A stretch of 64,000 nt of DNA from Trypanosoma brucei (GCA_000002445.1 CH464491.1:5056001-5120000); one strand, 5' to 3'. Counted from the first letter of the stretch, positions 1-64,000 are shown. Numbers and translations: made by a program. Notes: generated by a model not told the origin, from the letters alone.

Positions 1-280
1 TCTTCGTGGTTTGTTTGCGCCTCTCCAAGTTGTCGGTTTGTGGGTCGCCTGCGAAGAGCTTTTGCCATTTGTCATCGGCTGCCGTCATGTTCATTGCTTT
101 GATGTTCGTGATCTCTGTATTGTTTAGATCAGGAATGTCGGGTATTTGTGGGTCGACGTCTTTCAGCCGGAATACGTCACAAAGTAGCTGTAGGTCTTCG
201 ATTTTTTCGCGAGTAAGAGCTGCATGTGCCCTGGTCACGGTGGCTACCAGCGTTTTTAGCAGTACTGCCTGCTGATTCAT
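1..280 (-). CDS. Partial ORF open to the window edge; possible VSG N-terminus
   Basis: ATG at 280 (minus); 93 codons to the window edge with no stop: MNQQAVLLKTLVATVTRAHAALTREKIEDLQLLCDVF... Hydrophobic signal-like start plus an early ..LC.. as in B-type VSG N-termini. Sits in the expected cassette position: flank motif at 953-1010, 70-bp repeat at 1365-1475. Confidence 0.3.
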   Translation of the reverse strand, partial: MNQQAVLLKTLVATVTRAHAALTREKIEDLQLLCDVFRLKDVDPQIPDIPDLNNTEITNIKAMNMTAADDKWQKLFAGDPQTDNLERRKQTTK

Positions 281-1364
281 TTCTTGTTTCAGTGCGTCCT
301 GTCCTAATCCCTTGTCGGTTGAAATCGGAGAAAGTTATGACGGTTTGGATTCTTTTTTTTCCAAGACGCTATCGCCTACCAGCTGTTTTGAAGGCTTGAC
401 ACATTTGCAGAGGTTGGTGTTATTTTTGTCGTTTTTGGTTTGTTTTCTTATTTTTATGAGTTTCCGTGGTTGTGATCGGTTTTTTCCACTTGTTTTTCTA
501 GGAAAACTGGTTGCTTGGAGTTTCAGCGGCTAGAGGCTTGCTAACGTGGAGCCGGAACATAGTTTCCTCGTCGCTTCTGTTTTTTATAATGGACTGTCAG
601 TTGTGCGTTGGCGGCCGCTTCTATTTAAATTACTCGTTTGTTAAAGAGCGTAAGTATTCCGTCGCTGCACCAATAAGGAATTGGAGTAGTGTCGCCATAG
701 ATTCTCTTCACTTCATAAATCCGCTCCAACAGTTAAAATATGTTCTGTTTTAAAGAGTTTCTACCTTTTTACTTTTCTTTTCCTCTCTACAGTAATCCGT
801 TTCTACTCAACGTTTTAAAAAACTCCTCCAGGTAACATTGAAGTGTTTCCTACATCTGTTTACCGTTATTAATATATATATATATATATCATTAACATAA
901 GACTTCGATATTGTTTCACACTTACACAACCCTACCCATTCTTGTGCTGTATTCTCTTCACAGCTAAATATTAGGATCAGTTATTAGCAAAAAAGTACAG
1001 TCGTCACCAAATCAGCTGCTTCACGTATCCACATTTGAAGAAAATACATACCAAAATTTCCTTCTGTATCATCTCCCTCTCTGCCATGCTGCGCAGCCAC
1101 GTATCCTTTCTTTTTTTCTTCTAGTCCTGTTTCTGCTTGCAAAGCAGTTACTCAAGATGTCCTGTAAACCGTACTCTGTAACCTAAAAATTGGCCACCAT
1201 CTTCCCCTTGTGTATCATGATGCTCCTCATCATGTTTATTATTTAAATGCGCATCTTCCACCTCCCTTTCCCTACATTCCTTACTGTCATACTTGCTCAG
1301 CTTCTCCTTTTGAACTATTGTCATTCTTTTAAATGCTTCTATTTTTCCCGCCGGTTTTATCTCA

Positions 1365-1475
1365 ATCACCACAATATTATAATATTTGTATATACTCACT
1401 CACAACACACTCCTATTATTGTCATTATTATTGCTACTATCATTATCCTTATAATTACAGCTACGACTCTAACTT
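1365..1475 (-). repeat. VSG 70-bp repeat (single unit)
   Basis: aatattataatatttgtatatactcactcacaacacactcctattattgtcattattattgctactatcattatcc: GT-rich core plus TTA/TCA triplet tract. Confidence 0.85.
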
Positions 1476-1744
1476 GATATCCATAAAAAATGGGAAATGA
1501 ACTAAATTAATATATTACTTATTTTAATATACAATTACCCTCCTACATTCCACAGACAGTCCTCTATAATACAAATGTTTTACAAGTTCTTATTTTTTAA
1601 AAATTTTAATGAATTACACGTTTTGCAAGTTAGAAGTTAAAAAGTGTTAATATATATAACAAATTTTATAAAACTTCAAAAAATTATCTCAGAACAAAAA
1701 AATCATAAATTTAATAAAATTGAGCAAATATCCTTCGAATGATC

Positions 1745-2060
1745 GAATGCTACCAAACTTACAAAAGCAACAGGCATCAGAGCTAATTTCTTATTGAAAA
1801 TAAAACTGGAATCCTTGCAGTCTTTTTCATACTATTAACAGTTGCTGCCCTTTTCACAAGCTTGTCGATTAGTGTCATGTCTGGAACACTTATCTTTCTT
1901 CTCATCTTCCCCTCCTTCTTTCGCTTCTTCTTTTTATACTTTTTTTATGCCATCCTCACTCAATGTGCACTTTTTATCGTCGTTTCCTTTGGGATTGAAA
2001 ATGCGCCCATGACAGTTGAGCGGCTTTAGACGTCTGCTGTCAGGGGCAGATCTGGAAGTC
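1745..2060 (-). pseudogene. Orphan VSG C-terminal domain fragment (GPI-signal region only)
   Basis: Minus-strand translation gives ...DCKDSSFIFNKKLALMPVAFVSLVAF. Upstream coding matches the C-domain of the 12433 VSG (CTLSEE...). No N-domain. A 16-mer-like 3'UTR lies at 1641-1660. Confidence 0.6.
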
Positions 2061-2249
2061 ATTCCTTAACTGCTGATCGTAATAATCTCCTAGTTCCGAA
2101 TATCTCTCTTTTTAGATTATTTTTCATTTAAAAGCTATTCGTTTCGCGCAGCTACACTGGCATGCGTCAGCGTAAAAAAAGCCGAATGCACCGCAAAGAA
2201 AAACCTGGCAAATTATAAAAAAGCCAAAAAAAGTAAATTAAAACCCGAA

Positions 2250-2284
2250 ACCTAACCCCCTAACCCTAACCCTAACCCCAACCC
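2250..2284 (-). repeat. Interstitial telomere repeat tract (CCCTAA on plus, i.e. TTAGGG on the VSG strand); fossil telomere
   Basis: cctaaccccctaaccctaaccctaaccccaaccc, about 250 bp 3' of the VSG 2571-4086 3'UTR. Confidence 0.85.
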
Positions 2285-2520
2285 TTTTTTTCTCTTTTGT
2301 CGGTCCTATTTCTGTTCGGGCAGATTGTTCAAAAACTTAATTAAATTCGTTACCTCGGCCCAAAACAAAAATTAATTAAAAATAAAAAACCTAACACTAA
2401 AACCTACAAAAATCAACAGGAAAAAGGAGAAAAAATTTAGCAATCATCAAAAAAATTTGGTAGGCTCAGGTAGCCAATATATATATATATGTATATAACG
2501 ATTTCTCGGAGATTTTAAAG

Positions 2521-2539
2521 GGGTTAAAATATATCAAAT
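2521..2539 (-). promoter_or_regulatory. VSG 3'UTR 16-mer-like element (reverse complement of TGATATATTTTAAC..)
   Basis: gggttaaaatatatcaaat, immediately 3' of VSG 2571-4086. Confidence 0.7.
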
Positions 2540-2570
2540 AGCAAAGTTCGTTTAAAAATAGGGGAATTTT

Positions 2571-4086
2571 TTAAAACAGCAAGGCCATAAAAGCAGAAAA
2601 CACGTGAGGAACAGAAACTCTCAAATTTCTAGAAAACGATTTTTCATCTTTCTTTTTGTTTTCAGCTTTTGGAAAGCATTTAGGGTCTTTTTTATCATCA
2701 AAATCACAGCCTTTTTTATCTTTGCAGGGTTTCACTTGTTTTATGCTTTTTGCATTCATCTGCTGATTTGGCTGGTTCTGTTAATTTGTCTGTGTTTGTG
2801 GGACATGAGGGACTTTCTTGTTTTTTCTTCTTGACTTCTTGTTCGTTAATGAAACGGCGAACAGTGTAACATGTTGCTGCATCTGCGAGTTCTTTGGGGT
2901 TGGTTATTGTTTTCAGTTGTCTGTCGCCATTGCCGCCTACGGCGGCTTTTGGTGGTGTCATGTCGTCAAGCGACTTTCCTACAGCGTTTTTAATTTCGTC
3001 TCCATTTTCACCGATGACTTCCTTTAGTAAGTTATCCACTTTGGTTTTCGTGGCATCGGCGTACTTGGCGCCTTCGCCGTCTATGGCTTTCGCTAATTGT
3101 TCTTTCAGCCTCGGCGCCATTATCAGTGCTTTTATATCCAATGTTGCCGACAGTGTGCCTATCGCTGCTGCAGCGTCTTCTAGCTTGGCTATAGCTGCTG
3201 CTGCTGCTGCAATAGTTTTTTTGTTGGGGATCGCGGTAGCTTCCGAGCTGTCGGAGTATTTGCTGTCGCTTGCGTCAGTTTTACGTGTAAGCGTTATTGT
3301 TGCTTTGTCAAAAATCTTGCCGCCCTTTAAGGCTAGCACTGTGCTTGCGCCGTTGCTGCAGCCGTTGTTGGCTCCGTATTTCTGCCCGTTCGTCCCTGCG
3401 GCTGCGCAAAGTGTGAGCTCTGCGTCTGCTGCTGGTGGCGGCATATCTCTCGCTTTCAGCCCAATCAACACCAACTTATTTGTGCCTTGTTCATTTTGTG
3501 CGTGGCTACCTGTATGGTCTTCGTTCGTCCCGTCGGCTTTTTTGCATGTGCCGTGTCGGTTTGGTGTCAGCTTGGGTTTTGCCTGAAGATTCGTGCCGTT
3601 CGCGTACGTGCTTACTGCTGTGACAAAGTTTGTGGATTCTATTTGCGTGTTGCTGAGCTCTGCAACCGCTAGCATTTGTCGTTCTAGTTGTGCTGCTGCT
3701 GTTGTTCCTGCGTTTATAACGGCTGCTTTTCTTTTTACTGAGTTTAATACTTCACCAGCTGATTTTAAAAGAGACACCGCTAACAGCTTGGCTGTCAGTG
3801 CCTTCGCCCCTGTCTCTGTGCTCGTTACGGCGGGCAATTTTGTTGCTTTTGCGGTTGCCTTTTCCGCGTTATCAATTGCTGTGCTGATCAAGGCTTGGGC
3901 ATTGGCTGCAATATCTCCCAAATAGTATGCTGCGTGGCACGAGGTTGTTACTGCTGGTCTTTTGCGGTGTAATGCGGTAGCTACAGGCATTGCTGTTAAA
4001 GCAAAGATTAGTATTAACGCTTGCGGGGTTCGTTCTATCTTTACTATGGTGTCGGCCTTGCCATATTGGACGTTACTGCTGGTCAT
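2571..4086 (-). pseudogene. VSG, N-domain ORF intact, frameshift in C-terminal domain
   Basis: 456-aa ORF 2716-4086 with a hydrophobic signal (ALILIFALTAMPVATA) and an Ala-rich N-domain ends ...ADECKKHKTSETLQR*. The tail (KGCDFDDKKDPKCFPK...SAFMALLF) continues in another frame (2571-2759). 3'UTR 16-mer at 2521-2539; 70-bp repeat at 5660-5790. Confidence 0.85.
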
Positions 4087-6033: not shown

Positions 6034-7458
6034 TTATGCTAGAAGCAAAAATGCAAGCCAAAGAGGCGCCTTGTTAACGACAAAAGAATTGCTTCCGGTG
6101 GTGTTTGTGTTTGTCGTTTTCCCATCTTTCCCTTCTTGGCAATCGTTTTCTCGCTTAGATTTCACCTCCTTTTTCAACTCACACTTTTTGTCTTTTTCGT
6201 TAAAAGTGCAGTCTTTATCCTTTAAGCTTTCACAGGCTTTTTGATCACCCCCTGCTTCATTGCAAACTTTTTTTGCCGGCTCTTGTGTTGCTTTGTCTGC
6301 TTGTTGGCTTAGAGCTTTTGTGGGTTGTGGCGGTTGAGTAACTTCGACCGTCGCTTGCAAGTATGTTCTCAACGCTGCTGTTTTTAAGTTTGTGACCTCC
6401 GCTGCAATACGAGCATTTTTGAGTGAGTTTTTGTGTGCTGCTTCCAGTCTGCTTATTGCCGCTGTGAACTTGCTGAGCCACGGTATTTGCAGCTTGCCGG
6501 TTGCATCTAACGCCTTATACAGCACGCAGTCTCCGTTGGCGGCGCCGTTGCATTGTGTCTCGTCGCCTTTGCCTAGCATTATTTTGCCTGCTGTCGTGGC
6601 GCCCGCTTTGTGTTTTAGTGCCGCCGTGAAAGTCGCTGCTGCTGCCTTTATGTCTGCTGCCGTCGTTTTTGTGTGTGGTATTAATGGGCATTTTTTTGCT
6701 AAGGCCGCCGCCGCCGTTGCCGACGCACTGGCCGTGCTGTAGGTAATGCCGCTTAGTGCTGTCCCGGTGCATGCTGGTGATGACCCTCCGCTCGCGGAAC
6801 ACAGGCATAGGAAATCGCTCATGAACGACCTGCCCGCCTCGCTGTTGCTGGGATCGTTGCCGCCGCAAGCTGTCGCTGCCGTGCCGTACGTCTTGCTTCC
6901 GGCCTTATCCTCGCCGGCTTTATCGCCGAAAAGAATGTCGTTAAAGTCGGCTTGTGCCTCTGCCTGGGTGGTTGGTTCGACTAAACCTTTTTCAAGTGCC
7001 TTAGCTTTTTCTAGACTGCAATTGATTAGCTTGTTTGCTGTTGTCCGCATGGGGCTGTTTGGTAGTCGAAGTATTTTGATGCTGTCTATTTCCAAGTTGC
7101 CAGCAGAGATGAGGTGCTTGGCTTTCTGCCATTTAGGCCTGTTTTCTTTGTACTGCTGTGGTTTATCGCCGTCACTTGAATCATCTTCAAACTTTTGGTC
7201 GTACATGCTGTCTTCTGCTGTAGAAAGGTTAAGTTCGATCAGCTGTTGTATCGCGCGCGTCACCTCTTCCTTGTCTTTTTGCTCTGGAAGATCTGCTTCT
7301 GCAGTTAGGATCTGACGGATGCCGCACATCATATTGAACGCTTGTGCGTTATCGTTAGCTGCTCCTTTGCAGCTGCCGGCAAGGAGTGTTATTGCTACCG
7401 CAATCTTAACTTCGGCTACCGATAGCCTTGGTGAGCTTTGAAAATTTTGTTTCTTCAT
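6034..7458 (-). CDS. Variant surface glycoprotein, apparently intact (B-type N-domain, NTNTTGS...LWLAFLLLA C-terminus)
   Basis: 474-aa uninterrupted ORF. Signal peptide VKIAVAITLLAGSC. Motif CGGNDPSNSEAGRSFMSDFLCLCSASGG...IPWLSKF typical of B-type N-domains. Cys-rich C-domain and GPI signal SNSFVVNKAPLWLAFLLLA. Confidence 0.9.
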   Translation of the reverse strand: MKKQNFQSSPRLSVAEVKIAVAITLLAGSCKGAANDNAQAFNMMCGIRQILTAEADLPEQKDKEEVTRAIQQLIELNLSTAEDSMYDQKFEDDSSDGDKPQQYKENRPKWQKAKHLISAGNLEIDSIKILRLPNSPMRTTANKLINCSLEKAKALEKGLVEPTTQAEAQADFNDILFGDKAGEDKAGSKTYGTAATACGGNDPSNSEAGRSFMSDFLCLCSASGGSSPACTGTALSGITYSTASASATAAAALAKKCPLIPHTKTTAADIKAAAATFTAALKHKAGATTAGKIMLGKGDETQCNGAANGDCVLYKALDATGKLQIPWLSKFTAAISRLEAAHKNSLKNARIAAEVTNLKTAALRTYLQATVEVTQPPQPTKALSQQADKATQEPAKKVCNEAGGDQKACESLKDKDCTFNEKDKKCELKKEVKSKRENDCQEGKDGKTTNTNTTGSNSFVVNKAPLWLAFLLLA

Positions 7459-9322: not shown

Positions 9323-10862
9323 TTAAAACAGCAAGGCCACAAAAGCAGCAGTCATACTCAGAGTCAATTTGTTATTGAGGAGAAAACTTGAATCCTTGTA
9401 CTCGCCTTCAATCCAACTACAAACCGCTTTTTCACTTGGTTTTACGTCCTTGTTTTCCGGTTCAAATTCTTTTTTAGTGTGCTTGGTACACCTATTTGAA
9501 TCAGTTTTGCCATTTTCCCCTGCTTGGTTTTTTGCCCCTTTTTCTGCTTTTTGTTTGGATTCCTTATCCAATTTTCACTTCCTTTTTCCGCGTTCTTCAA
9601 CAATCAGTTTGCATGGCTTTTCGCACTTGTGTAACCCTTTTGCTTCACAAGTTGAGTCTGTTTCGTTTATTTTTGTGGTCTGTTGGTTTGATTTGTTTTC
9701 TAAATTTGTGGTCTGTAGTTTTAACTTTTGTATATTTCGGTTCTTGTAGTAAGCCAAGACTTTCTGCAATGTTTCTAGACTACTGATGCTACTTAGCGCT
9801 ATTTCCTTCCCTTCATCGGCGTCAGGGTCTTGGACTTGCTCTTTCGTTTTACTGCTGTCGTATTTTTCGGACATGACTGTGCTACCTCAAAGCATTGCTT
9901 CTATTTTTCGTTTAACAGCGGGTTCAGGAGTTCGCGAACCGTTCTTCTTCAAAACTATTGACCTGTAGAGAGATACGAAAGTTTGGTCGTCTTTCAGTTT
10001 AAGTCCGTCTTTGAACTCATACTTTTGGGGTTGCTTATTTGTGGCCAAGTATTCCTGACGAGCTGCATGAAGTAGAGGCTCTGCATCTGCTTTGGTCCTT
10101 ATTTTGGTTGTTCCCTTCATTTTCATGCCTGTGCCGTCAAGATAGAAAATAACCGCCGAAACCTTTGGTGTTACGCCAATAGTGTGTCCGGTGTTTGCAT
10201 TTAGCATATAGTTCGTGGCTTTCGCTTTTGTTAGAGCTCAGACGCTACTTCCACCGGTTGCCTCAACATCAGCATCGTCGCTTTTGATCGCGCCCTGATA
10301 GCCGGCTGCATCAAAGCCTGTAACTGTCGGTTCAGCTGCTGTTAGCCCGGTCGTTTCGAGCACACATCCAGGCGCGTCGGTTGAGAGGTCTGTATTGTGT
10401 CTTCTGAACACATTGGTCCCGGTTTGCCTCGAGGAGAGAGTGTGTAGTGTCGCTGGCGATCTGGCTCGTTTATGTCACGAATTATGCTATCGCCGCTTGC
10501 GCTCTCGCCGCATCCCGGATCGCTGTTAGCTGTATTGCCTTCGGCTGTCCCAGAGAGGTCCTCCAAGGCAGTTTCCCCCGCTGAGTGTAATACGCTAGGA
10601 GCGCCTTCTCCTCCGGGGTCTGTGAGCCGTCACCATTTTTTTCTATTATTATTTTTGCTTTGTATAACTGCTTTAGCTCATCGTGCGCAGTTGTCGCGTC
10701 ACCTTTTACAATTGCGGATGCTTTTTGTTGTATCTTGTCGAGTTCTGCCGCCAACTGGCATGCACCGGTCCATGCAGTATATTTGATGCCGCCGCCAGGT
10801 GTACAAGACATGCTTTTGGCCGCGAGTAGCGTAACAAATAACGGCAGTGGAGTGGTTTGCAT
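9323..10862 (-). pseudogene. VSG pseudogene (multiple frameshifts/stops)
   Basis: N-terminus with signal peptide (MQTTPLPLFVTLLAAKSMSC...) at 10482-10862. N-domain pieces at 9887-10207 and 9575-9874. C-terminus ...CSWIEGEYKDSSFLLNNKLTLSMTAAFVALLF at 9323-9571. 3'UTR element at 9254-9274. Confidence 0.85.
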
Positions 10863-12079
10863 GATGTAAATGCTTCGCTGTAGCTTGAAGCTTAGCTTTG
10901 TTTCTTGCTACTTTTTGTGTCTCCGGTGAGTGGTTGTGTCCGCAAAGTTTGATGTAAATTCTAAATTAAATATAAAATGTCCAGGTCGGGTAATATTCTT
11001 GTGAGTGTTTGCACAAAAACACCTAGTTCGCTTTATGAAATCATACTTATAAATCAAACCCATATTTTTCTTGTCAATTGTATCTACGGGAGTGTAATTC
11101 CAGTCCTGCGAATTCTCGAGATACCCAACAGATTTCTAAGCCTGACAATTAAAATCTTACGGTTGTTAATTGCTTTTATTTGATGGAAGCTTTGTATCGC
11201 ATGTCGGAGTGACAAACAGGAAGCCCTAGCGTTTCTCCAGGACACAAATGAGTTTTTTCTGCTTCTCCATCCCGTGTGACCGTATTTCATCGACGCTTAA
11301 GAATTAAAAAATTGGGTTCGGAAAGAGGTTTTTTTCTCTGCTTTTCTTTATTAATTCTTGCCGTTGGTTTTTACACAACGACAACTCTTAAGGTCTGATC
11401 ATTATGCCAATAAAAAATCGGTGGGCATCATTAAAAACTTTTGTCATCTCATATAAAGCTCTTCTAACGGAAAGTACGCGATTTACTTTAAGCAGTTTCC
11501 ACGTACTAATTTATATATATATATTTTTACGGTAATTCAATAGTAGTCTCAGTCTTCAAATCCTCATCCAAATAAAACGTCATATTGTCTTTCTAAAATG
11601 TTACTATTATTAATGTTCCTAATGAGAACAAGAATTTACTATTATTTCATACTCAATTTTTTAAATTCGCATCTCCTTTCTCTTCTTCACATATAAAAAA
11701 TGGAATATACAATCAAATTAATAAATATAGTTGCTGCCATCTCTGGTGTATTACCTATAACTTTTGATTTAATTCGTCAGAATCGTTTTGTGTATAGCTC
11801 TATGCCTTCTCGTATTCTGTAATTTTTTTGTTGGCACTTTTCTTTCATCTATTGCTTCTTCTGCATGATACGTGACGAATTCATTTGTTGTTTCCACTGG
11901 ACTGTACCACTCTCCAATTTTCCATGCAATCATCTCCATGAGTGTAATAATGACCATTGCCATATTTGTATTTGAAGATGCGCATTTTCATCTCCCTTCA
12001 TCACACTCCCACTTTACTCAAACAACTTCCATTGTCGTGAGTGCTTCTATTTTTCTTTTTCATTTGCCTATAACCAATG

Positions 12080-20310: not shown

Positions 20311-20333
20311 AAAGTGTTATAATATATCAAAAT
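20311..20333 (-). promoter_or_regulatory. VSG 3'UTR 16-mer-like element
   Basis: aaagtgttataatatatcaaaat. Confidence 0.7.
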
Positions 20334-36542: not shown

Positions 36543-36543
36543 A

Positions 36544-40078: not shown

Positions 40079-40116
40079 AAAATTTCAGCGTGGAAAAAAT
40101 GAGGAGGAAATTTCCT

Positions 40117-53254: not shown

Positions 53255-53440
53255 CTCATAATAATATTCGTATACACACACTCACAACACACTCCTATTA
53301 TTATTAATATTATTATCATTATTATTATTACTGCTGTTATTATAATATTCGTATACACACACTCACAACACTTTCCTATTATTATTAATATTATTATCAT
53401 TATTATTATTACTGCTGTTATTATAACTATAAATGATGTC
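53255..53440 (-). repeat. Two near-identical tandem 70-bp repeat units (about 86 bp each)
   Basis: ataatattcgtatacacacactcacaacac(a/t)(c/t)tcctattattattaatattattatcattattattattactgctgttattataa occurs twice head-to-tail. Confidence 0.9.
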
Positions 53441-53630: not shown

Positions 53631-55481
53631 CTAAATTACTACTAAACTCACAAAATCAGCATCTATAAGAGCCAATTTCTTATTTAAATTAAAGCTACTA
53701 TTACGGTTCTTTTCTGTTTCCTTTTCATCTTCACCCTCTTTTCCCTTCCTCCATGCACAATTTTGTTTATCGCCTGTTTTGTCATTTTCACAAACTGCCT
53801 TATCAGTTCCGTGTTTTGCACATCTAGCTGAAGCTCCATCTCCTGTTGTTGTTCCTGCGGCTGTTCCTACTGTCCCTCTTTTAGGTTTACATTCCATTTT
53901 TTATCATATTCGCATCCGTTGTTTGTGCAATTCGTTTCATTGTTGTTGAATATAGCGCATTTATTATGTTCCTCTACTATGGGTTCTGTGACTCCCCCTG
54001 CTGGTGTGTTGGCACTTTCCGGTGACGTACATGTCAGCCGTACGCAAAAAAGCTTCCATTTGCGTAGCAATTGTCTCTGATTCTTTTACCTAGGCTGCGG
54101 CTGCCCGTGCTTCGTTACTGATTTGTGCTAACTTTTGTTGAGCATCCTGGAGCGCTTTGATCCATGCTATATTTTTTTCATGTTTCAGTAATTTAACGTA
54201 GTCTATGAAATTCCCTTTGTTTGCGGTTGCTAAGTCGGAGCCGCCGGTGTGGTCGCATGTGGTTTGCGACGTGGATGCCACATTGTACGCGCCGAATAAA
54301 GCCCTGTGTTTGCCGGCGTGCGTTGCCGCATTTCCCAGGCTTGCCTGCGCGATCCAGTTAGTCCCCAGGTCAGCGTGAAAATTTTCACTTGCCGCAACTA
54401 TGTTTGTGCCTGTGACCTCCGTTTCTGCCGTTCTTGCGGCTGCTTCGCACGCGCCCGCCAGCATCTTAAATGCCGCTTCTGCTTTCGGCTGATTCCCCGA
54501 ACCCGCGTTAAAGTCTCCCGCCACTGCAGGTGCCGTGCCGCACGGGTTTTCTTGTGTCGAGTGGGCGGTAACACACAGACAGAGCAGATCTGTTGCTAGT
54601 GCCTGTTCGACTTGGTCCGCTGTCTATGTTGCTTTTTTGCATGTGGTTACTCGGGTCGATGAGTCCTCCCAAGGGAATTTCTTGTTTGTTGGTTGTGCAA
54701 ACGCTGCATCTGGTTCAGTGAGCGAGTTTATTGTTGTTGCTGCTCCGCTGCCGTAGGGCACGGTAAGTAGCGCTTTTCGTGTTTGAAGCCTTGTTGTTGT
54801 TATTGTGGCGTCTAATTTGTTTACTTCTGTATTAATCTTTTCTGTGTCGGCTGCCAGTCTCGCAAGTTTTGGTTTGAACATTCTTCTTTTGCTTTCACTG
54901 AGTGGGAGGCCATACTCCGCGTTGAATGCCTTCAGTTACTCATTGTTCTCTTGCATGTCGTTGTAATCTTTGATCATGGCGTCAAGTAAGTTGCTGTCTA
55001 TTCCGGCAAAAAGATTTTTGACTGGACTGCTCTCTTCCTGCAACTTGGCTGCTGTGCCGTACTTTTCCTTTGCTTTTAGAGCCTCAGTCATTTGAGGCTC
55101 TGCCGCCGTTAAATTTAGGTTGATTATTTTTGCTGGGATAGGTTTCATTCTGCTCTTGGAAGTTTCTGCTTGGTTAGCTAGACCGATTACCGCCATTTTT
55201 GGCTCAGGTGGCACCGCCGTTAAAAGTTTGTAAATTACACAGAGATCCATGAACTCTTTCGCTTTCTCACTGGTGCTGTTCGCATATCCCAATGTGAGAG
55301 TTGTGATGAGAACCAGCTTCGTAAACAGCTTCGCGAGTATTTGTGTTTTTATTTCGCTATTCGGAAAAGTAAATTGTGGGAAGTTAAAAGTATAAAAATT
55401 CTGCGTAACATATGAGGAAAAATGAATTGTTTTTGGCTTCAGTTTCTGTGATATTGAAGAGGTCTTAAAAACAGCACTCAT
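53631..55481 (-). pseudogene. VSG pseudogene (A-type N-domain; multiple frame breaks)
   Basis: Signal-like KLVLITTLTLGYANS in 54936-55481. N-domain 54090-54524 (...CDHTGGSDLATANKGNFIDYVKLL...). C-domain pieces at 53867-54070 and 53631-53897 (...SSFNLNKKLALIDADFVSLVVI). 3'UTR at 53562-53581. Confidence 0.8.
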
Positions 55482-56425: not shown

Positions 56426-59400
56426 TATTCCGGGTGACGCCGGCCACTCCATCGTGGTTCCAGGGTCTAGTACTCCGTCCAGGAGGGAGCCAAGTGGCCG
56501 CATTAAACAAGGTCCGACAGGATTGGGGCGTGCAATAGGTTTTCGGCGACCAGGGAAGGAGCAAGCAGAAGCATCGGCACTCTGAGGTGAAGAAATATAT
56601 TATACTTCCCTCTGCATGTGCGAGCGTGCATCCATTGGGACACATAGGCTTTTACTCTTCTTAGCAGAGATGTGAAACAGAGTGCCGGTCCCGTCACTTG
56701 TAGAGCCCAGTAGAACTCTGGGGGTATCTCACATGCGAAGCGGATAGCTTTAGAGAAGAAGCTCCATGAGGACATGGTTTTATTTTCTTGCAGGAGGGAC
56801 ACTTGGCCTCGGTGGCGCGTGCCGCATTAAAAATAGGTGGATACCAATACATGGGGATAGCACGTTTTATACATGGTTTTGGGGTTTTAAATCTAGTGAG
56901 AGATGGCGTGGGATTCATCCAACGTCCGAAGGAGGAGGGTCTGCCGAAAAGAGCCTTGGCAACACTGATGTTTTAATCTGATCTTATGTTAACTATAAAA
57001 ACAGCTTACGTCCCACAGAAGAACAATAGTACTATCTCCACGCTTGAGAACCTTGAGAGCTCACCTGGATCACTAATAATAAGATCAGATACAAACGCAC
57101 ATCACGAGTTATGAGACCAGCTTCGCACAAATGATATTGCAGAAAAAAGTGCTGTAGACTGGTGTTTACAAAATGATATCAAAATTGTAAATGATGGCAC
57201 ACCAACGAGAAGAATGGCTCACATGGCAACAATGCCGTCTCCCGACGTCACGATGTACAGAGACTGTGAAGTCACAAGATTGGATAGAAGGCTCAGTCCA
57301 GATAGTGACCATTACTGGATAACGTTTGAGGTGTGTGTTGGCATTGGTGTATAAATGATCACCATCACCAAGCCGTGAGGGGAGTTGTATACTTAGAGCA
57401 AAGAAAATTGGCGGTAGTTTAGAAAAGTGTGTGATGTAACTATGTTGAAAAAATTAAGGAAATCGAGAAAGTGCGTGGATGCCATCAATGAAGAAGTGAC
57501 TAAAAGCATTCGAACAGCAGCAAAGAAAATCATACCGAATAGTTAAGGAAGTATCGTCACAGTTCTAGACACGATAACTGACAGAAGTTGACACAAAAAT
57601 AAGGGAATCTACAAATGAGAAGCAAAGAGAGATGCGCTTATATACAAGAGAAGGAAGGTCCTCGCCGACGCATCCTTAAAATGGTGGAAGGAAAATATGT
57701 TTAAGATGTTAGTGACCGATACAAAATGTTGGAATTTAGTTAACTCCATGTATGCACCGAGATCACTGACATCTCCTGTTCTGGTAGTGAATGACCACCA
57801 TCTAACACGCAGAAAGTAAGCTAATAAGCTGGAAAATGTATAGAGAGAGATCTGTTGACAAAAGCACCAGATGATCCTCCTATGAGTATAGCATATTGAG
57901 TAAGCGGAGAAATCGCACAAATAACGATGACAAAACTTGAGACAGAACTGAACGAACTCTTTTCAAGCACTGCCCCCTGTAAGGGAAATATACATTGTGA
58001 ACAGTTGAAGCAATTATGCCACTGTAGCAAGAAATGCGTCACAAGCTTTTAAACTGTAGCCTACAGAAACACCGAGTGCAGGAAAAATTAAAGCAGGGTG
58101 TTTTTATCTCACTACTCGAACCCAACAAACTCGCCAAGTGTGTGCTGTCGTTCCGGACCATCACGCTCACTAGCACACTCTGTAAACTCAAGGAAAGGAT
58201 TATATTGAGATTAATATGACACACAGTAGAACGTAGGCTACAACCACAGCAAGTTGGCCTTTTTCCAGGGAGGTCTACGTTAGACGCTGTAATGACACTC
58301 ACAGACTTAGTGAAACATAGAGTAGCAGGAGAGACAACTGCCGCTGTATTCATGGGTTATGCGAGAGCATTTGACTCTGTGGATCACAGGCGCGTATTAA
58401 ATGCATTAAAAAGATACGAGGTAGACATGCACCTCATTGCATTGGTTGCAAACTTTCTGGAGGGATGGACTGCAGTAGTACGAATAAGCAACACCTTCTC
58501 AAAGAAAAAAAATACAGCTCACATGTGGTATTTCACAAGGGTCCGTGTTGGGGTCGTTGCTATTCATTATCGCAATGGCCTCCCTCATAGCGAGATTAAA
58601 TGTCATACCAGCCCTTAAATACTGATTTCTTGACAGATGAAATCACGATAGTATGCTCTAACAGCGACAGAGAAGCTATTCAGCAGAAGGTACAACCAGG
58701 ATTAAGTTGTATAGCGAACTGGTCAGCGAAGCACTATGTGGAGGTGTATGCAGAAAGATGGTGGTATACGTTCTTTGTGGTGAGAGAAAGAGACTCATTA
58801 AACCTAAAGCTGGGACAGTACAGGTTAAATTAGACGAGAAATCCCAGACCCCTTTAAATGATAATGCAGCCACACAAAAATGTAATCAAACATACTCACA
58901 CCCTACAAACAAAAGCAAATATGAGATTAATGAAACTAAGTGTTGTTGTATCACATGAATGGGGGCGAGTAAAAACGGCGTCTGAGCATCTTAATTAGCC
59001 TTATTCCAGGCGATGTTATGCTATGGTATCGCAGTATGATGATTCAATGCTTCTCCTTCAGAAAAGGAGAACCTTGAACAAGTACAAGCGCAGGCGTCAC
59101 ATGTCATCGCGGGGATTCCAAAGTATGTGAATCGGGAAGATATTGTGAATGAGGCCCGTTTTCACACGATAGATAATATTGCTCACAGACAAGCAATAGA
59201 ATACCATTTAACAAGGAAGGCAAACGGTAAGGGATTAGCCAATACAGTGGAAAAAATGTTCCCACCCGGTCATCCTATACACGCAACTGCATAGTGTGTC
59301 GCACCTGTATGTGGAAGTAGACAGACCTGAGAAACCACACACGGCAAGCGTATTGTAACTAGTGAGGAGACCTTACGTCAACACCATAACATCAGGTGGT

Positions 59401-60030
59401 CTTCATTCTGACGCTTCTGGCAGAAAGAAAAATTAACACACATTGCAAAGAGTAGATAGATTCAGACTACGATCATCAAGTGTGGACGGGTCAGTTGGTG
59501 ATACTGAACGAATCATCTGGTGCCGGTGCGAAAATATACTCTAGACAAGGTAAAGCGGAAAAAGTGAAGAAAGGGGCAGGAAGGTTAGCGTGCAGCTACA
59601 GAGCATAGTGTGTAGCCATGGAGGCAAGACTTATGAAGCTTAAGTCAGTAACAAAGATCAACGAGAGTAAAAACCGAAAGTGGCAATATTTACAGACTTG
59701 TTATGTTTATTAATGGCACTAAAAAAAGGTTCTGAGGTAGTGACGGATTCCATATTCTGGCGCATATAGAATCTGATCATACACTTCATGAAACTTCGAG
59801 TAGACATGTCGTTTCAGTTTGTATTTTCATATTGCGGTATCCCGAGAAATGTTAAATTGGACGAGCTCGCAAACAAAGGAAACCACATGCCGTCAATTTG
59901 TAGTTCACAGATCACCAACATTGTCACAGGTATAACGCGCCAGTTATGTAATTAAGCACAATGTGACTTTGCGGAAGGCTGAGACCTAAGCACACACCGC
60001 AGCGTTTTACTAAACCATATACAACAAAAA
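56426..60030 (+). mobile_element. Degenerate ingi/DIRE-like non-LTR (LINE) retrotransposon; 3' boundary uncertain (+/-150 bp)
   Basis: GC-rich 5' block (ccggccactccatcgtggttccagggtctagtactccgtccaggagggagccaagtggccgc) resembling the RIME/ingi 5' end. Endonuclease-like segment at about 57000-57350. RT motifs in broken frames: ...ITLTSTLCKLKERII (58034-58219) and FMGYARAFDSVDHRRVLNALKRY (58292-58618). A-rich tract about 60020-60040. Cassette flank sequence resumes at about 60040-60170. Confidence 0.75.
58034..58958 (+). pseudogene. Reverse-transcriptase domain of the ingi/DIRE element, frameshifted
   Basis: Three overlapping ORFs (58034-58219, 58292-58618, 58600-58958) carry non-LTR RT motifs: RPISL-like ITLTSTLCKLKERII and a xxDxxKAFDxVxH-like FMGYARAFDSVDH with the first Asp replaced by Gly. 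Confidence 0.7.
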
Positions 60031-60300
60031 CAAAAAAATAAGGAGCTAGATTGTGAAGTTGAGTCAATGTTAGCTCAATTTAGAACAGGGACTCCAAAAC
60101 ATTTTGGATGGTTACATAGGGTGATCATAAGAACAGTTAACAAACTGGAGTGTAGATGGTGTGCAAAACACACGGAGAGCATTCTCAATACTCCCTAACC
60201 ATATTACATTACAACAACAGGTCACTATCATATACATCTACTATTTTTTCACTTTTTTCATTTTTTTCATTATTTTCAAATAATCGAAAAGGTTTTACAA

Positions 60301-60322
60301 ACGTGTTAAAATACATCAAATT
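60301..60322 (-). promoter_or_regulatory. VSG 3'UTR 16-mer-like element
   Basis: acgtgttaaaatacatcaaatt, 70 nt 3' of VSG 60392-61744. Confidence 0.7.
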
Positions 60323-60391
60323 TTACCAAATTTAATAAATTTACAAAATTGAGAAAAAATATTCAAAATACATTAATCCTTATAATGCTAC

Positions 60392-61744
60392 CTAACTCAC
60401 AAAAGGAATAGCAAAAATAAAAAATTTCTTATTTGGAGCAAAACTGGACTCTTTGCATTCTTTTCCTTCCCATTGGCAACCATTTTCTTCACAGTCCTTC
60501 TTTTTTTTGAGCTTGTCGCATTTTTCCGTTTCTGAACCTGACGGTTTTGCTGTTTGGGCGCTGTCCACCGGCAACGGTGCATCTCCTGAAATTGCCCGCA
60601 GATACGCTGACAGTGCTGTTTGTTTGAGGTTTACAACTGCCCTATAAATTTCTCCATTAGCAAGAGCGTTTGTTTTGGCTTCTTCCACCTTCTGTTCTGC
60701 TGTTTCGAGCGCTTCGAGCCACGGTATAGGTGTGTGCCCGTCCGCTGGTGTGGGTTTGTAATAGACGCAGAGACCTTGGGCGCCGCCGTTGCATTGTTTG
60801 CTGTCCTCTGCACCTAGTATGTTACCTTCGGCTTGTGTGTTTTTGCCATTCTTCTTCAGGGCTGCTAGAAATGTTGCCCTGGCCGCTGCAGCCGCTGCTG
60901 CGTTGAATTTTACTCCTTTTGCCTTTGGGCACTTTTCTAGCAGCTTGCCGTACGCTGTCGCCGCGGCGTTTGGGTTTGTGTACTGAACGCTCGCCCCCAC
61001 GTTTGCCCCCGTGCACTCTTCCCCATTGCCGCCGTTTGCTGCACAGAGACAGACGAAGTCGGCTGCGAGGCTGGCGCCTGAGTTTTGGCTAGTCGGGTTG
61101 CTGCCCCCGCATGCTGAATCTCCAGTTGATGGGAATGGCTTGTCAGCGTCACTTGTTAGTGCTCCGCTCTCGCCAAACAGCACTTTGTTTTGGAGATCTT
61201 TTATTGCTGTGGCCGTTATTTTAGGTTTGAGTTCTTTCTGCTTTTCAAGTGCCAGCTCTAGTGTCCGGTTTATAATCGTCGCTGCGACGTTCCTTTCATG
61301 GCTTGGCCCGGGGTGCATTAGCTTTACTTCGTCGATCACCGTGTCGCCCTTGTCGATTAATTTTTTATTTTTTTCCCACGTGTCTCTGTTGCCCTTCCAG
61401 TGTTTTGATTCCTGAGCTTCGTCTGGTTTTTGCTCGAAAGAAAGTTTGTAGAAGCTTTCTGGCGCCACCGAAAGATTGAGCTGTTTTATAATTTCTAGGA
61501 TCGCTGGGACGCTTTCACCTTTTTCCTCCGTGTCGACGTCAGGCGGAGAAGACGCTATACTAATTACTGCTGAAAGAGCATCGAAAACTATGGCATTGTC
61601 ATTGGCCGCTGCCGCTGATTTGTCCGCTGTGGGGGCTAAAATTTCGATTATTGTGGCTACTTTCCTGAGCATGTCTTTGGTTAATTGTTGTCGATGAGAG
61701 AAGACTATGGCGAGGGCTAGAGTTTCTCGGTCTTGGTATTTCAA
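60392..61744 (-). CDS. VSG (B-type, paralog of the 6034 VSG); ORF intact but atypical N- and C-termini, possibly nonfunctional
   Basis: 450-aa ORF. ...AAANDNAIVFDALSAVISI... aligns with AANDNAQAFNMMCGIRQIL of the 6034 VSG, but the conserved Cys is absent. Shared CGGSNPTSQNSGASLAADFVCLCAANGG...IPWLEAL. Ends ...CQWEGKECKESSFAPNKKFFIFAIPFVS rather than ...FVALLF. 3'UTR at 60301-60322. Confidence 0.75.
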   Translation of the reverse strand: MKYQDRETLALAIVFSHRQQLTKDMLRKVATIIEILAPTADKSAAAANDNAIVFDALSAVISIASSPPDVDTEEKGESVPAILEIIKQLNLSVAPESFYKLSFEQKPDEAQESKHWKGNRDTWEKNKKLIDKGDTVIDEVKLMHPGPSHERNVAATIINRTLELALEKQKELKPKITATAIKDLQNKVLFGESGALTSDADKPFPSTGDSACGGSNPTSQNSGASLAADFVCLCAANGGNGEECTGANVGASVQYTNPNAAATAYGKLLEKCPKAKGVKFNAAAAAAARATFLAALKKNGKNTQAEGNILGAEDSKQCNGGAQGLCVYYKPTPADGHTPIPWLEALETAEQKVEEAKTNALANGEIYRAVVNLKQTALSAYLRAISGDAPLPVDSAQTAKPSGSETEKCDKLKKKKDCEENGCQWEGKECKESSFAPNKKFFIFAIPFVS

Positions 61745-63284
61745 ACAGATTTCAGTTGTCGTCCCTACTTTAAATACTGATACCGCTGCCTCTGCCGCGT
61801 CTCCAGGTTTCCTTTGGGAAAAAGTGTTTGCTTATAGCTAGCCGAAATGCTCCACTACATTGAACACGTTGGATGCAAGTTGGGGCCAGCGGTTGTGGTG
61901 AACCCATCAGCTCGCGGTTGCACATACGCGGCCTCTGTGGCCCCTGTATCCAGTGTACACGTCTCCGTTTCTGTGTACTGTAGCTTTGTGAGACGTGCTT
62001 GCTGCCTTGACTGCTTAAAGCGTGTTCTTTCCATTTGTATTAACGACGCCGCACAGACACCGCTTGTCATCCATTTTTTTGCATATGCCCAAATCGCCTC
62101 CGTTTCTTTTCCCTCCTCCATCGGCTCTAAAAGACGTATATGAACCTTGGAAACCTTTGTTATGATGCTTTGTGACGAACACTAGGACCTGCCAGTAGAT
62201 TTAAAGCCACGGTCTTGGTTTTCACTGCAGTTGCATACTTTTCTGGGTGAACTAAAACTGTCTTTGGAGTTTGTCATGAGGGCCCCACACAGGAACCCTA
62301 AGTTATTTTTCAATCTTAGTTCCTTGGCGCGCAGCGAGCTTAGCCCCGTATTCTATGTATTTTATTCTTCTGTTTGTTTGCGTACATTTTGAGCATTGAG
62401 AAGGACTAAGTTCCACTTTTTTCCTATGGACTAATTGCAATTGAAAAATGCAGACTTTTACTTCTTCAATTTTTACAATGCATTTCTACGTTTGTCTAGT
62501 ACATATTGCTTTCTTTTTAGTTTAAAGGTATCGAAATCTGTTAGTAATGTGAAATAATTATATGAACTAATATTTTTAATACTTTGTATTTGTTAAAATG
62601 AACTTAATTGCACTCTTTTAAACACCTCATTGTCAATACACTAAATTTTCCATTTAAGGTGCGGTTTTAAAAAGCAAGTGGTTAACTTAGTTCTAAAAAA
62701 AACGAAAAGCTTTCTTCTTCGTAATAACTTTACTAATTTGGCTGCTTGTTTTTTCACCAACACTAAGTGTCTCTAAACTATCTGATGATGAAACGCTTTT
62801 ATTTCTACTTTTATGTTGCAGGTTTGATGCATTATTTTTCTTTCTCCTAACACTTCTAAATTTGGTTCTTTTTTTGTTTCTTCTTCAGAGCGATAAACTC
62901 TGATAAGTGTTGTACTTGTGAACAAAATGTAAGTCTTTTACAGATGAAGTATCTGTAATAGATTGCTCTATATCAGTTATTAAGAACAAAAGTGAAATAA
63001 TGCGTCCTTCCAGGATTTCTTGGAAGCGGACTCGAAGTGAAACTCTTAAGTGTCTTACACTTATACTGCTTTTTTGTATTAAGTATTGAGGCTTCATTTT
63101 CCCGTGCATTTGTTTGGCCCTCTTCATCACCCTCTTCTCTATCTTCTTGCCCGTGAGGCAGCGCGTCGTTATGTTTCTTTTTGAAAGTGCACATACTCCA
63201 TCTCCCTCTCTTTTTCGCTTACTTACTCCCATTGTATCCTTGCCACTACTTCGAGTGCTTTATTTTTATATGTTAATTTAGTCT

Positions 63285-63370
63285 CTATTATTACTCTTAT
63301 TATGGTATCAGTATATATACACTCACAACATACTCCTATTATTATCATTATCATTATTATCATTATTACA
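63285..63370 (-). repeat. VSG 70-bp repeat
   Basis: tattatggtatcagtatatatacactcacaacatactcctattattatcattatcattattatcattatta. Confidence 0.8.
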
Positions 63371-63659
63371 AGCCTAACTAATATAAAAAAATAAGAAAAA
63401 TAAACATAATAAACAAAATTGGATAGCACAATATTTCATGCTCTATCACCATACTACTTTAAAGTAGTATGCCACTGTCGTATCACAATTTCATATTTTG
63501 GAGCTTTTAAAAATTCGCACATTTAGCGAAGGGTTAACAAACGTTTTAAAAATATGTCCAACTTTAAAAAATTAAAAAAATATCTGGTAACAAAAAATAT
63601 CATACATTTTATAATATTTCATAAAATTGAGCAAAACCATTTTACCAATATTTCTAAAA

Positions 63660-64000
63660 TTGTTGTGCTAGAAGCAAAAATGCAAGAAAGAGAGAAGCCT
63701 TAACTGGAAAAGAATTTCTTCCTGTGGTGTTTGTAGATTTTTCTTCATTCTCCACTTTCACACCCCCTTCCGTATCTTTAGCCTCGCACTTTCCTTTTTT
63801 TCTGTGCCTTTCCATTCACATTTATCGTCTTTGCTGCAGTCAGCTAGATTGCTTTTGCTGCTGCAGACAGATGACAAGGTTTTCTGGCCGGCATTTATTT
63901 CCGGTTTGCTCTTGCTGATTAGGGTTTTCTGATGCTGCAAATAAGTCAATGTCGCTACGGCGTCGCCGCCAGTTGCAAGATCTTTAAGGTTTCCCTCCAC
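63660..64000 (-). CDS. VSG C-terminal portion, partial at the window edge
   Basis: ORF 63758-64000: ...DCSKDDKCEWKGTEKKE... GPI-signal-like DNA continues to about 63660. 3'UTR-like element at 63538-63563. Confidence 0.6.

What the first reader, a model, noticed from the sequence alone, without database searches (positions are those of the whole stretch)
1..64000. Whole window is a unidirectional trypanosome VSG array, not a prokaryotic region
About 19 VSG genes or fragments lie on the minus strand with a period of roughly 3.0-3.6 kb. Each has the 70-bp repeat / conserved flank / VSG / 16-mer 3'UTR order. Protein hallmarks are seen directly: signal peptides, Cys-rich C-domains with CxW...KDSSFL.NKKF, and GPI tails ending ALLF, FLLF or LLLA. 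Plus-strand frames are only antisense low-complexity ORFs. Only 3 of 19 appear intact, consistent with the pseudogene-rich silent archive described for T. brucei subtelomeres. Any search for bacterial defence or mobile systems here is a category error.
Basis: partly seen in the sequence, partly recalled or inferred. Interest (0 to 1): 0.5.

Follow-up and report, generated by a model that had tools for sequence, protein, structure and literature searches.

The report
Silent trypanosome VSG gene array
This window is a stretch of the already sequenced and annotated Trypanosoma brucei TREU927 genome, a head-to-tail archive of mostly broken surface-coat (VSG) genes used for antigenic variation, so it is correct but ordinary.

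Summary
The window is a eukaryotic, one-directional array of silent VSG cassettes.

- **Source.** Three minus-strand ORFs (6034-7458, 23190-24644, 40117-41565) are 100% identical over their full length to consecutive NCBI proteins XP_829784/5/6. These belong to T. brucei brucei TREU927 and lie on a 5.26-Mb contig.
- **Content.** I map 17 full-length VSG cassettes, 2 VSGs cut by the window ends and 2 orphan 3' fragments. All are on the minus strand.
- **Spacing.** Cassettes are 2.7-4.3 kb apart, with a median of about 3.4 kb.
- **Flanking elements.** Most cassettes have a 70-bp repeat 1.0-2.6 kb upstream. Downstream they have a 16-mer 3'UTR element and a conserved block of about 85 bp.
- **Integrity.** Only three genes are uninterrupted, and one of those is annotated "atypical". 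The rest carry frameshifts or in-frame stops.

- The window is not purely VSG. Positions 56430-60200 on the plus strand hold a degenerate ingi/L1Tc-clade retroelement with reverse-transcriptase and endonuclease domains, so "plus strand is only antisense ORFs" is wrong.
- The 1-1.8 kb flank between the 70-bp repeat and the VSG is not conserved.
- Two cassettes lack a detectable 70-bp repeat.

The novelty class is "already known" and the interest is low.

The parts
1..280 (-). VSG 'a': N-terminal part of a B-type VSG. The gene runs off the left end of the window.
   Evidence: Pfam VSG_B 3e-10, profile positions 7-83. Local B-type HMM 1.6e-5.
1380..1554 (-). 70-bp repeat (1380-1446) plus conserved pre-70 block (1487-1554), upstream of VSG a.
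   Evidence: nhmmer 5.9e-7 and pre-70 HMM.
1644..2026 (-). Orphan VSG 3' fragment 'b' with its own 16-mer-like element (1644-1659). It is paralogous to 26268-26720.
   Evidence: 16-mer with 2 mismatches. 76-77% identity to 26342-26720.
2244..2286 (-). Degenerate telomere-like (TTAGGG)n tract about 240 bp downstream of the 16-mer of VSG c.
   Evidence: TRF, exact CCCTAACCCTAA matches.
2521..4086 (-). VSG 'c': A-type pseudogene. A 456-aa ORF is followed by a frameshift before the C-terminal tail ...SAFMALLF. The 16-mer is at 2521-2536.
   Evidence: Pfam Trypan_glycop, frame change 1 to 2, not in the protein collection.
6034..7458 (-). VSG 'd': intact B-type VSG, 474 aa, identical to XP_829784.1 / Q380V9.
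   Evidence: Pfam VSG_B 8e-71. 100% identity and coverage.
9326..10907 (-). VSG 'e': A-type pseudogene with several frameshifts. The C-terminal domain ends KDSSFLLNNKLTLSMTAAFVALLF.
   Evidence: Pfam Trypan_glycop 1.7e-14 and Trypan_glycop_C 3e-15, frames.
12436..14026 (-). VSG 'f': A-type pseudogene.
   Evidence: Pfam Trypan_glycop 7.7e-8 and Trypan_glycop_C 3.2e-14.
16066..17521 (-). VSG 'g': A-type pseudogene. Its upstream flank is unusually long (2.6 kb).
   Evidence: Local A-type HMM 1.6e-10. C-terminal tblastn 2e-11. Flank length.
20314..21930 (-). VSG 'h': A-type pseudogene. The 16-mer is at 20314-20329.
   Evidence: Pfam Trypan_glycop 2.3e-18. In-frame stop in the C-terminal domain.
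23190..24644 (-). VSG 'i': uninterrupted A-type VSG, 484 aa, identical to XP_829785.1 / Q380V8. It is annotated 'VSG, atypical'.
   Evidence: Exact match. Pfam. Listed as structural class A1c in PMC10501684.
26268..26720 (-). Second orphan VSG 3' fragment, paralogous to 1644-2026.
   Evidence: Degenerate 16-mer at 26268.
27117..27165 (-). Degenerate telomere-like tract about 130 bp downstream of the 16-mer of VSG j.
27296..28791 (-). VSG 'j': A-type pseudogene with no ATG or signal peptide and a frameshift before the C-terminal domain. The 16-mer is at 27296-27311.
   Evidence: Pfam Trypan_glycop 2.3e-16. Frames and tail ...AAYVALLF.
30383..32192 (-). VSG 'k': B-type pseudogene. An exact 16-mer is at 30383-30398. 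No 70-bp repeat was detected upstream.
   Evidence: Pfam VSG_B 9e-29. Local B-type HMM on both halves..
33080..34549 (-). VSG 'l': A-type pseudogene. The 16-mer is at 33080-33095.
   Evidence: Pfam Trypan_glycop 1.8e-33.
36524..38148 (-). VSG 'm': A-type pseudogene with two in-frame stops and a lost natural stop. An exact 16-mer is at 36524-36539.
   Evidence: tblastn 3e-25. Three contiguous same-frame segments.
40062..41565 (-). VSG 'n': intact VSG, 482 aa, identical to XP_829786.1 / Q380V7. The 16-mer is at 40062-40077. Its 90% cluster holds further T. brucei VSG records with no strain given (AGQ... and APD... accessions).
   Evidence: Exact match. Local A-type HMM 1.3e-97.
43581..45077 (-). 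VSG 'o': A-type pseudogene, related to c and i.
   Evidence: tblastn 2.8e-62 against VSG i, frames.
47336..48696 (-). VSG 'p': A-type pseudogene with no ATG or signal peptide and a C-terminal frameshift.
   Evidence: tblastn 3.4e-48 against P0026. Local A-type HMM 5e-83.
49900..51522 (-). VSG 'q': A-type pseudogene. A 490-aa ORF ends at an in-frame stop before ...DGKECKDSSILVNK.
   Evidence: Not in the protein collection.
53261..53426 (-). Best-preserved 70-bp repeats: two tandem 81-bp units upstream of VSG q.
   Evidence: TRF period 81, 97% matches. Core motif exact.
53634..55481 (-). VSG 'r': B-type pseudogene with in-frame stops and a frameshift. No upstream 70-bp repeat was detected.
   Evidence: Pfam Trypan_glycop_C 4e-15. 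Local B-type HMM 5.6e-11. Frames.
56430..60200 (+). Degenerate ingi/L1Tc-clade non-LTR retroelement (DIRE-like) on the opposite strand. It lies tail-to-tail with VSG t and occupies the place where r's 70-bp repeat would be.
   Evidence: Pfam RVT_1 2.6e-15 and Exo_endo_phos_2. Best relatives are T. congolense and T. vivax reverse transcriptases at 37-45% identity. The ORF is split over three frames. AT skew is reversed.
60303..61744 (-). VSG 't': B-type gene with a long ORF (first ATG at 61669). It has a weak signal peptide and a shortened GPI tail ...KKFFIFAIPFVS, so it is probably a pseudogene. The 16-mer is at 60303-60318.
   Evidence: Pfam VSG_B 7.6e-70 and Trypan_glycop_C 5e-11. Not in the protein collection.
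63657..64000 (-). VSG 'u': C-terminal domain and GPI tail (...SLFLAFLLLA). The gene starts beyond the right end of the window.
   Evidence: Local HMMs 9e-13 and 3e-14. tblastn 1.8e-36.

Best explanation
The window is part of a silent, non-transcribed VSG array on a megabase chromosome of Trypanosoma brucei brucei TREU927.

**Cassette layout (shown).** Read along the minus strand, each cassette has this order:
- a conserved block of about 85 bp;
- one or two 70-bp repeats;
- 1.0-2.6 kb of unique flank;
- a VSG coding region of about 1.4-1.6 kb (N-terminal domain of type A or B, Cys-rich C-terminal domain, GPI signal);
- a short AT-rich 3'UTR carrying the 16-mer.

**How it works (inferred from established knowledge, not tested here).** The cassettes are donors for antigenic variation.
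- A break near the 70-bp repeats of the single active telomeric expression site is repaired by gene conversion. The upstream 70-bp repeat and the C-terminal/3'UTR region provide the homology, so a silent VSG is copied into the expression site.
- The roughly 14 full-length pseudogenes cannot be used whole. They contribute segments to mosaic VSGs by segmental gene conversion.
- The 16-mer acts after activation, as an mRNA-stability element.

**Later additions to the array.** A degenerate retroelement, a second small retroposon-like remnant, and two telomere-repeat relics with orphan VSG 3' ends are debris from subtelomeric recombination and transposition.
For: - **Identity.** There are exact 474-, 484- and 482-aa matches to consecutive TREU927 proteins on one 5,261,801-bp contig.
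- **Family.** Pfam VSG_B, Trypan_glycop and Trypan_glycop_C hit 13 cassettes. The remaining cassettes are covered by local HMMs or tblastn.
- **Strand.** All VSG hits, all 16-mers, all 70-bp repeats and all 15 pre-70 blocks are on the minus strand. All 258 self-repeat pairs are direct.
- **Pseudogene status.** Frame maps show frameshifts and in-frame stops in 14 cassettes.
- **Nothing else present.** No ESAG or other protein family is present.
- **Literature.** VSG arrays lie on the arms of the megabase chromosomes, with short tracts of 70-bp repeats near the VSG genes; the ~1.5 kb upstream distance was reported for minichromosomal VSGs (PMC4858185). Two-thirds of array VSGs are pseudogenes that are used for mosaics (PMC3467770; PMC12137147). 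All TREU927 VSGs are annotated in VSGdb, with 4.5% intact (PMC1868767).
Against: - No DNA-level comparison with the TREU927 assembly was possible, because no trypanosome DNA collection is among the tools. Exact-protein contig look-ups returned nothing. The chromosome assignment therefore rests on contig length, and coordinates are unknown.
- The donor function of these particular cassettes is inferred from the literature and was not tested here.
- About 6% of the window (56430-60200) is not VSG.
Confidence: 0.97

Rival explanations
1. The window is a bloodstream or metacyclic VSG expression site: a telomeric, transcribed locus.
For: VSGs, 70-bp repeats and two short TTAGGG-like tracts are present.
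Against: - There are about 19 tandem VSGs rather than one terminal VSG.
- Each gene has only 1-2 70-bp units rather than a tract of many kb.
- No ESAG domain is found in any ORF.
- The telomere-like tracts are only 40-50 bp, degenerate and internal.
- Most of the genes are pseudogenes.
Confidence: 0.01
2. The window comes from another Trypanozoon genome (T. b. gambiense, T. evansi, T. equiperdum or another T. b. brucei strain) or from a mini- or intermediate chromosome, not from a TREU927 megabase chromosome.
For: Related VSGs exist in T. equiperdum, T. evansi and other T. brucei isolates. No DNA-level match could be run.
Against: - Three separate VSGs are 100% identical over their full length to TREU927 records with consecutive accession numbers on one 5.26-Mb contig.
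- Other members of the same 90% clusters are distinct sequence records, and one (P0029) is shorter at 440 aa.
- VSG repertoires diverge quickly between strains (PMC3467770).
Confidence: 0.02
3. The window is a prokaryotic or phage region whose ORFs only resemble VSGs by composition.
For: None beyond the design of the scan.
Against: Pfam E-values reach 1e-71 for trypanosome-specific domains, and there are exact matches to T. brucei proteins. There are no tRNA or Rfam hits.
Confidence: 0

Closest known systems
Subtelomeric silent VSG arrays of T. brucei TREU927 (Berriman et al. 2005 genome; VSGdb, PMC1868767; archive reviewed in PMC3467770)
   Same: It shares the head-to-tail tandem cassettes, 1-2 upstream 70-bp repeats, the 16-mer 3'UTR element, a mix of A-type and B-type N-terminal domains (13 A, 5 B) and a small minority of intact genes. 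Three proteins are identical to the TREU927 records.
   Different: Nothing substantive. This appears to be the annotated reference sequence itself.
Bloodstream expression sites (BES; PMC2567434)
   Same: Both have a VSG preceded by 70-bp repeats and followed by the 16-mer 3'UTR. TTAGGG-like repeats lie 3' of two of the VSGs here.
   Different: This window has no ESAGs, no promoter, no 70-bp tract of several kb and no terminal telomere. It also has many VSGs in series, most of them defective.
DIRE: degenerate ingi/L1Tc-related elements (PMC4035085, PMC8190864)
   Same: The plus-strand relic at 56430-60200 has an APE-type endonuclease and a reverse-transcriptase domain. Its ORF is broken over three frames. 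Its 5' end resembles the Pr77 hallmark as I recall it from memory.
   Different: It is only about 3.8 kb long, against about 5 kb for full elements. It is 37-45% identical to the T. congolense and T. vivax elements. It could not be aligned to a Tbingi or DIRE consensus here. No poly(A) tail or target-site duplication was identified.

Membership tests
Variant surface glycoprotein (VSG) gene family | N-terminal domain of type A (PF00913) or type B (PF13206) | tested here: met
   Pfam hits cover a, c, d, e, f, h, i, j, k, l and t. Local A-type and B-type HMMs or tblastn cover g, m, n, o, p, q and r.
Variant surface glycoprotein (VSG) gene family | Cys-rich C-terminal domain (PF10659) followed by a hydrophobic GPI-anchor signal | tested here: met
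   Trypan_glycop_C is found in e, f, r and t. The tails ...FVALLF...AFLLF...AFLLLA and ...AVLLLA were read directly in the translations. No GPI predictor was run.
Variant surface glycoprotein (VSG) gene family | N-terminal signal peptide | tested here: inconclusive
   Hydrophobic N-terminal stretches are visible in d, i, n, q, e and f. No signal-peptide predictor was available.
Silent subtelomeric VSG array (T. brucei megabase chromosome) | Tandem, same-strand VSG cassettes | tested here: met
   All VSG hits are on the minus strand and all repeat pairs are direct. Spacing is 2.7-4.3 kb.
Silent subtelomeric VSG array (T. brucei megabase chromosome) | One or a few 70-bp repeats upstream of each VSG | tested here: met
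   16 of 18 cassettes have a 70-bp-like site 1.0-2.6 kb upstream, 13 of them at E<1; the sites for c, f and h score E=1.3-4.1. None was detected for k and r.
Silent subtelomeric VSG array (T. brucei megabase chromosome) | Conserved 16-mer TGATATATTTTAACAC in the 3'UTR | tested here: met
   There are 9 matches at up to 2 mismatches against 0.15 expected, all on the minus strand. Copies in several pseudogenes are degenerate or absent.
Silent subtelomeric VSG array (T. brucei megabase chromosome) | Majority of genes are pseudogenes or fragments | tested here: met
   There are 3 uninterrupted genes, about 14 full-length pseudogenes and 2 orphan fragments.
Silent subtelomeric VSG array (T. brucei megabase chromosome) | Location on a megabase chromosome | tested here: met
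   The three exact-match proteins sit on a 5,261,801-bp contig. The chromosome number (11) and the coordinates are inferred and were not read from a record.
Bloodstream expression site | ESAGs, a long 70-bp repeat tract, and a single telomere-adjacent VSG | tested here: not met
   No non-VSG Pfam family was found apart from the retroelement. There are 1-2 repeat units per site. The telomere-like tracts are 40-50 bp long and internal.
DIRE / ingi-L1Tc clade retroposon | Reverse-transcriptase and APE-type endonuclease domains in a degenerate ORF | tested here: met
   RVT_1 2.6e-15 passes the Pfam cut-off. Exo_endo_phos_2 scores 24.4 bits, just under its 27.4 cut-off. Trypanosome reverse-transcriptase homologs reach E=8e-116. 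The frames are broken.
DIRE / ingi-L1Tc clade retroposon | Pr77 hallmark (77-79 nt) at the 5' end | tested here: inconclusive
   56433-56510 resembles the L1Tc Pr77 sequence as I recall it, but no reference sequence was available. Rfam has no match. The predicted fold is not unusual, with z = -1.07.

The most novel reading that the evidence does not exclude
The two paralogous modules record the capture of once telomere-proximal VSGs into an internal array. Each module reads: VSG, 3'UTR, short TTAGGG-like tract, about 250 bp of spacer, then an orphan VSG 3' end with its own 16-mer and 70-bp repeat. They lie at 1370-2580 and 26015-27360. On this reading the junction module was later duplicated while the VSG upstream of it was exchanged. 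This would be sequence evidence for gene flow from telomeres into arrays, and for a reusable recombination junction. It may already be described in the archive literature, which I could not read in full.
Probability: 0.3. Interest if true: 0.25.

Novelty: already known. Interest (0 to 1): 0.07.

Why it matters
For the scan, this result flags the window as eukaryotic parasite sequence. Tools for finding prokaryotic genes, defence systems or mobile elements should not be applied to it, and ORF lists made with bacterial start codons are misleading here. Biologically it is a textbook example of the T. brucei antigenic-variation archive and adds nothing new. The reference annotation (GeneDB/TriTrypDB, VSGdb) already covers these genes.

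Tried and rejected
- **Exact-protein contig look-ups.** Look-ups for VSG d and VSG n found nothing on record. Coordinates and gene IDs could therefore not be retrieved.
- **Pfam alone.** Pfam missed several A-type VSGs (n, p, q, m, g). These were recovered with tblastn against database VSGs and with local HMMs.
- **Conserved upstream flank.** A search across the 1.0-2.6 kb upstream flanks found only five matches of 30-50 bp (blastn, word size 7). The idea of a long conserved flank was dropped. The conserved element is instead the pre-70 block.
- **RNA genes.** Rfam at gathering thresholds over the whole window found nothing. A lenient Rfam search over the retroelement's 5' end found nothing. 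ARAGORN found no tRNA genes.
- **Retroelement 5' end fold.** The predicted RNA fold of that end is not exceptional.
- **Other ORFs.** Pfam on the ten longest plus-strand ORFs and on ten inter-VSG ORFs gave no family above its cut-off.
- **Unused searches.** The third homology search, structure prediction and the representative-library search were not used, because the identification was already exact.


Full report
**Observation**

The window is AT-rich (GC 33-47%) with a strong negative AT skew everywhere except 56-60 kb.

Long ORFs lie almost only on the minus strand. Pfam assigns them to the trypanosome-specific families VSG_B (E down to 8e-71), Trypan_glycop (A-type) and Trypan_glycop_C.

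I joined the minus-strand stop-free segments of the remaining cassettes and scanned them. This added VSG domains for cassettes a, e, f, h, l and r.

Three further lines show that the array runs in one direction:
- tblastn with 42 database VSGs gave 94 HSPs, all on the minus strand.
- Local A-type and B-type HMMs gave 28 hits on minus-strand segments and none on plus-strand segments.
- Self-BLAST found 258 repeat pairs, all direct and none inverted.

**Source**

The 474-aa ORF at 6034-7458 is 100% identical over its full length to XP_829784.1 / EAN80672.1, 'variant surface glycoprotein (VSG), putative [Trypanosoma brucei brucei TREU927]'.

Exact look-up also places two other ORFs in that genome:
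- 23190-24644 is XP_829785.1, annotated 'VSG, atypical'.
- 40117-41565 is XP_829786.1.

All three are on a contig of 5,261,801 bp. The accession numbers are consecutive although the genes are 17 kb apart. This implies that nothing between them has a protein record, which fits pseudogene annotation.

From my own knowledge of T. brucei chromosome sizes, a 5.26-Mb contig fits only chromosome 11. I could not read the record itself, because the contig look-ups failed.

The next-best homologs are VSGs of T. brucei, T. equiperdum and T. evansi.

**Anatomy**

I map 17 full-length cassettes, labelled c-r and t. Two further VSGs are cut by the window ends:
- a, at 1-~280, is an N-terminus.
- u, at 63657-64000, is a C-terminus.

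There are also two orphan 3' fragments, at 1644-2026 and 26268-26720.

N-terminal types are B for a, d, k, r and t, and A for the other thirteen.

The flanking elements are as follows.
- **16-mer.** TGATATATTTTAACAC has 9 matches at up to 2 mismatches against 0.15 expected, all on the minus strand. Eight lie 8-200 bp downstream of a full-length VSG reading frame and one (1644-1659) belongs to orphan fragment b. It is degenerate or unrecognisable in ten cassettes, including the uninterrupted genes d and i.
- **70-bp repeats.** Sequences like the 70-bp repeat occur at 18 sites, all in minus orientation, though three of them (5686, 15714, 22914) score only E=1.3-4.1. The best is a tandem pair at 53261-53426. 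They lie 1.0-1.8 kb upstream of the start codon (2.6 kb for g) in 16 of 18 cassettes. None was found for k or r.
- **Pre-70 block.** A conserved block of about 85 bp sits between each 3'UTR and the next 70-bp repeat. It was found 15 times, always on the minus strand. Distances between successive blocks give a cassette length of 2.7-4.3 kb, with a median near 3.4 kb.
- **Upstream flank.** The long flank between the 70-bp repeat and the VSG shares only a few 30-50 bp patches between cassettes.

**Integrity**

Only d, i and n are uninterrupted from an ATG with a signal-like N-terminus to a GPI tail. The others have defects:
- c has a frameshift before its C-terminal tail.
- m has two in-frame stops and a lost natural stop.
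- q and h share an in-frame stop in the motif ...KATDCK*DGK....
- r has in-frame stops plus a frameshift.
- j and p lack an ATG and a signal peptide.
- e, f, g, l, o and k are split over two or three frames.
- t has a long ORF but a weak signal peptide and a shortened GPI tail, and it has no protein record.

This gives 2 'putative' plus 1 'atypical' gene out of about 19. That agrees with published figures: 4.5% of archive genes are annotated intact (PMC1868767), and about two-thirds of array VSGs are pseudogenes (PMC3467770).

**What is not VSG**

Between VSG r and VSG t, at 56430-60200, the AT skew turns positive. The plus strand there encodes a broken reverse transcriptase containing the motif ...YARAFDSVDH....
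- Pfam gives RVT_1 at 2.6e-15 and Exo_endo_phos_2 at 2.7e-5.
- The closest proteins are T. congolense and T. vivax retrotransposon reverse transcriptases, at only 37-45% identity (E = 8e-116).
- The reading frame changes repeatedly.

This fits a DIRE, a degenerate ingi/L1Tc-related element (concept from PMC4035085 and PMC8190864).

Its first ~80 nt (56433-56510) resemble the Pr77 hallmark as I remember it. I could not test this: Rfam has no match and the predicted fold is unremarkable.

The element's 3' end cuts into the pre-70 block downstream of t (read). It occupies the position where r's 70-bp repeat would be.

The other long plus-strand ORFs do have no Pfam family.

There are no tRNA genes or Rfam families in the window.

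**Mechanism**

The following is inferred from established knowledge. The cassettes are silent donors.
- Gene conversion into the active telomeric expression site uses the 70-bp repeats upstream and the C-terminal/3'UTR region downstream as homology (PMC4858185, PMC3467770).
- Pseudogenes contribute segments to mosaic VSGs (PMC3708902, PMC12137147).

What is shown here is only the anatomy that this model requires. No activity of these particular copies was tested. VSG n shares its 90% cluster with further T. brucei VSG records (AGQ... and APD... accessions) whose strain and source the look-up does not state.

**Comparison and verdict**

Every defining feature of a T. brucei megabase-chromosome VSG array that I could test is met. 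The defining features of an expression site (ESAGs, a long 70-bp tract, a terminal telomere) are not met.

The sequence appears to be the reference genome itself. It has been annotated since 2005 and curated in VSGdb, and one of its proteins (Q380V8) is listed in a 2023 structural classification (PMC10501684). The finding is correct, already known and of low interest.

The only mildly interesting detail is a pair of paralogous junction modules, each with a TTAGGG-like tract and an orphan VSG 3' end. 'TTAGGG-like' repeats are reported 3' of telomere-proximal VSGs (PMC3708902). These modules may therefore mark VSGs that moved from a telomere into the array.

Noticed in passing
window 56430-60200 (+): A degenerate ingi/L1Tc-clade non-LTR retroelement (reverse transcriptase plus endonuclease, many frameshifts) lies on the opposite strand between two VSGs. 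It is only 37-45% identical to T. congolense and T. vivax elements, so it is DIRE-like rather than a recent ingi copy. It replaces the expected 70-bp repeat of VSG r and truncates the pre-70 block downstream of VSG t.
   Followed up: partly
window 2244-2286 and 27117-27165 (minus-strand sense TTAGGG): Short degenerate telomere-repeat tracts lie 130-250 bp downstream of the 16-mers of VSG c and VSG j. Each is followed by an orphan VSG 3' fragment (1644-2026; 26268-26720). The two fragments are 76-77% identical to each other, although the VSGs upstream of them are unrelated. A short inverted TTAGGG piece also lies at 27002-27013. These are possibly footprints of telomere-proximal VSGs captured into the array.
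   Followed up: partly
window 52545-52590 (-): A second Pr77-like core (CATCGTGGTGTCAGGGTCTAGCACCCAGGAAGAA) lies in the flank upstream of VSG q, followed by a GC-richer stretch of about 400 bp. It may be a short degenerate retroposon (SIDER/TSIDER-like) remnant.
   Followed up: no
window, 15 sites (for example 5785-5870, 20177-20262, 36364-36446, 53436-53519), all (-): A conserved block of about 85 bp (...GTGACCTATGG...GAAAATGAGTGCTATTCTAATTT...TTTATGGAT...) sits between each VSG 3'UTR and the next 70-bp repeat. It is better conserved than the 1-1.8 kb flank upstream of the VSGs. I did not check whether it is a named element.
   Followed up: partly
window 20461-20560 and 49900-50060 (-): VSG h and VSG q share the same in-frame stop within a near-identical C-terminal motif (...CEKATDCK*DGK(K/E)CKDSS...). 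This suggests the C-terminal region was copied between cassettes after it had already become defective.
   Followed up: no
window 17522-20102 (-): The flank between VSG g and its upstream 70-bp repeat is 2.6 kb, against 1.0-1.8 kb elsewhere. It contains a 127-aa ATG ORF (18185-18565) with no Pfam match. What the extra DNA is was not determined.
   Followed up: no
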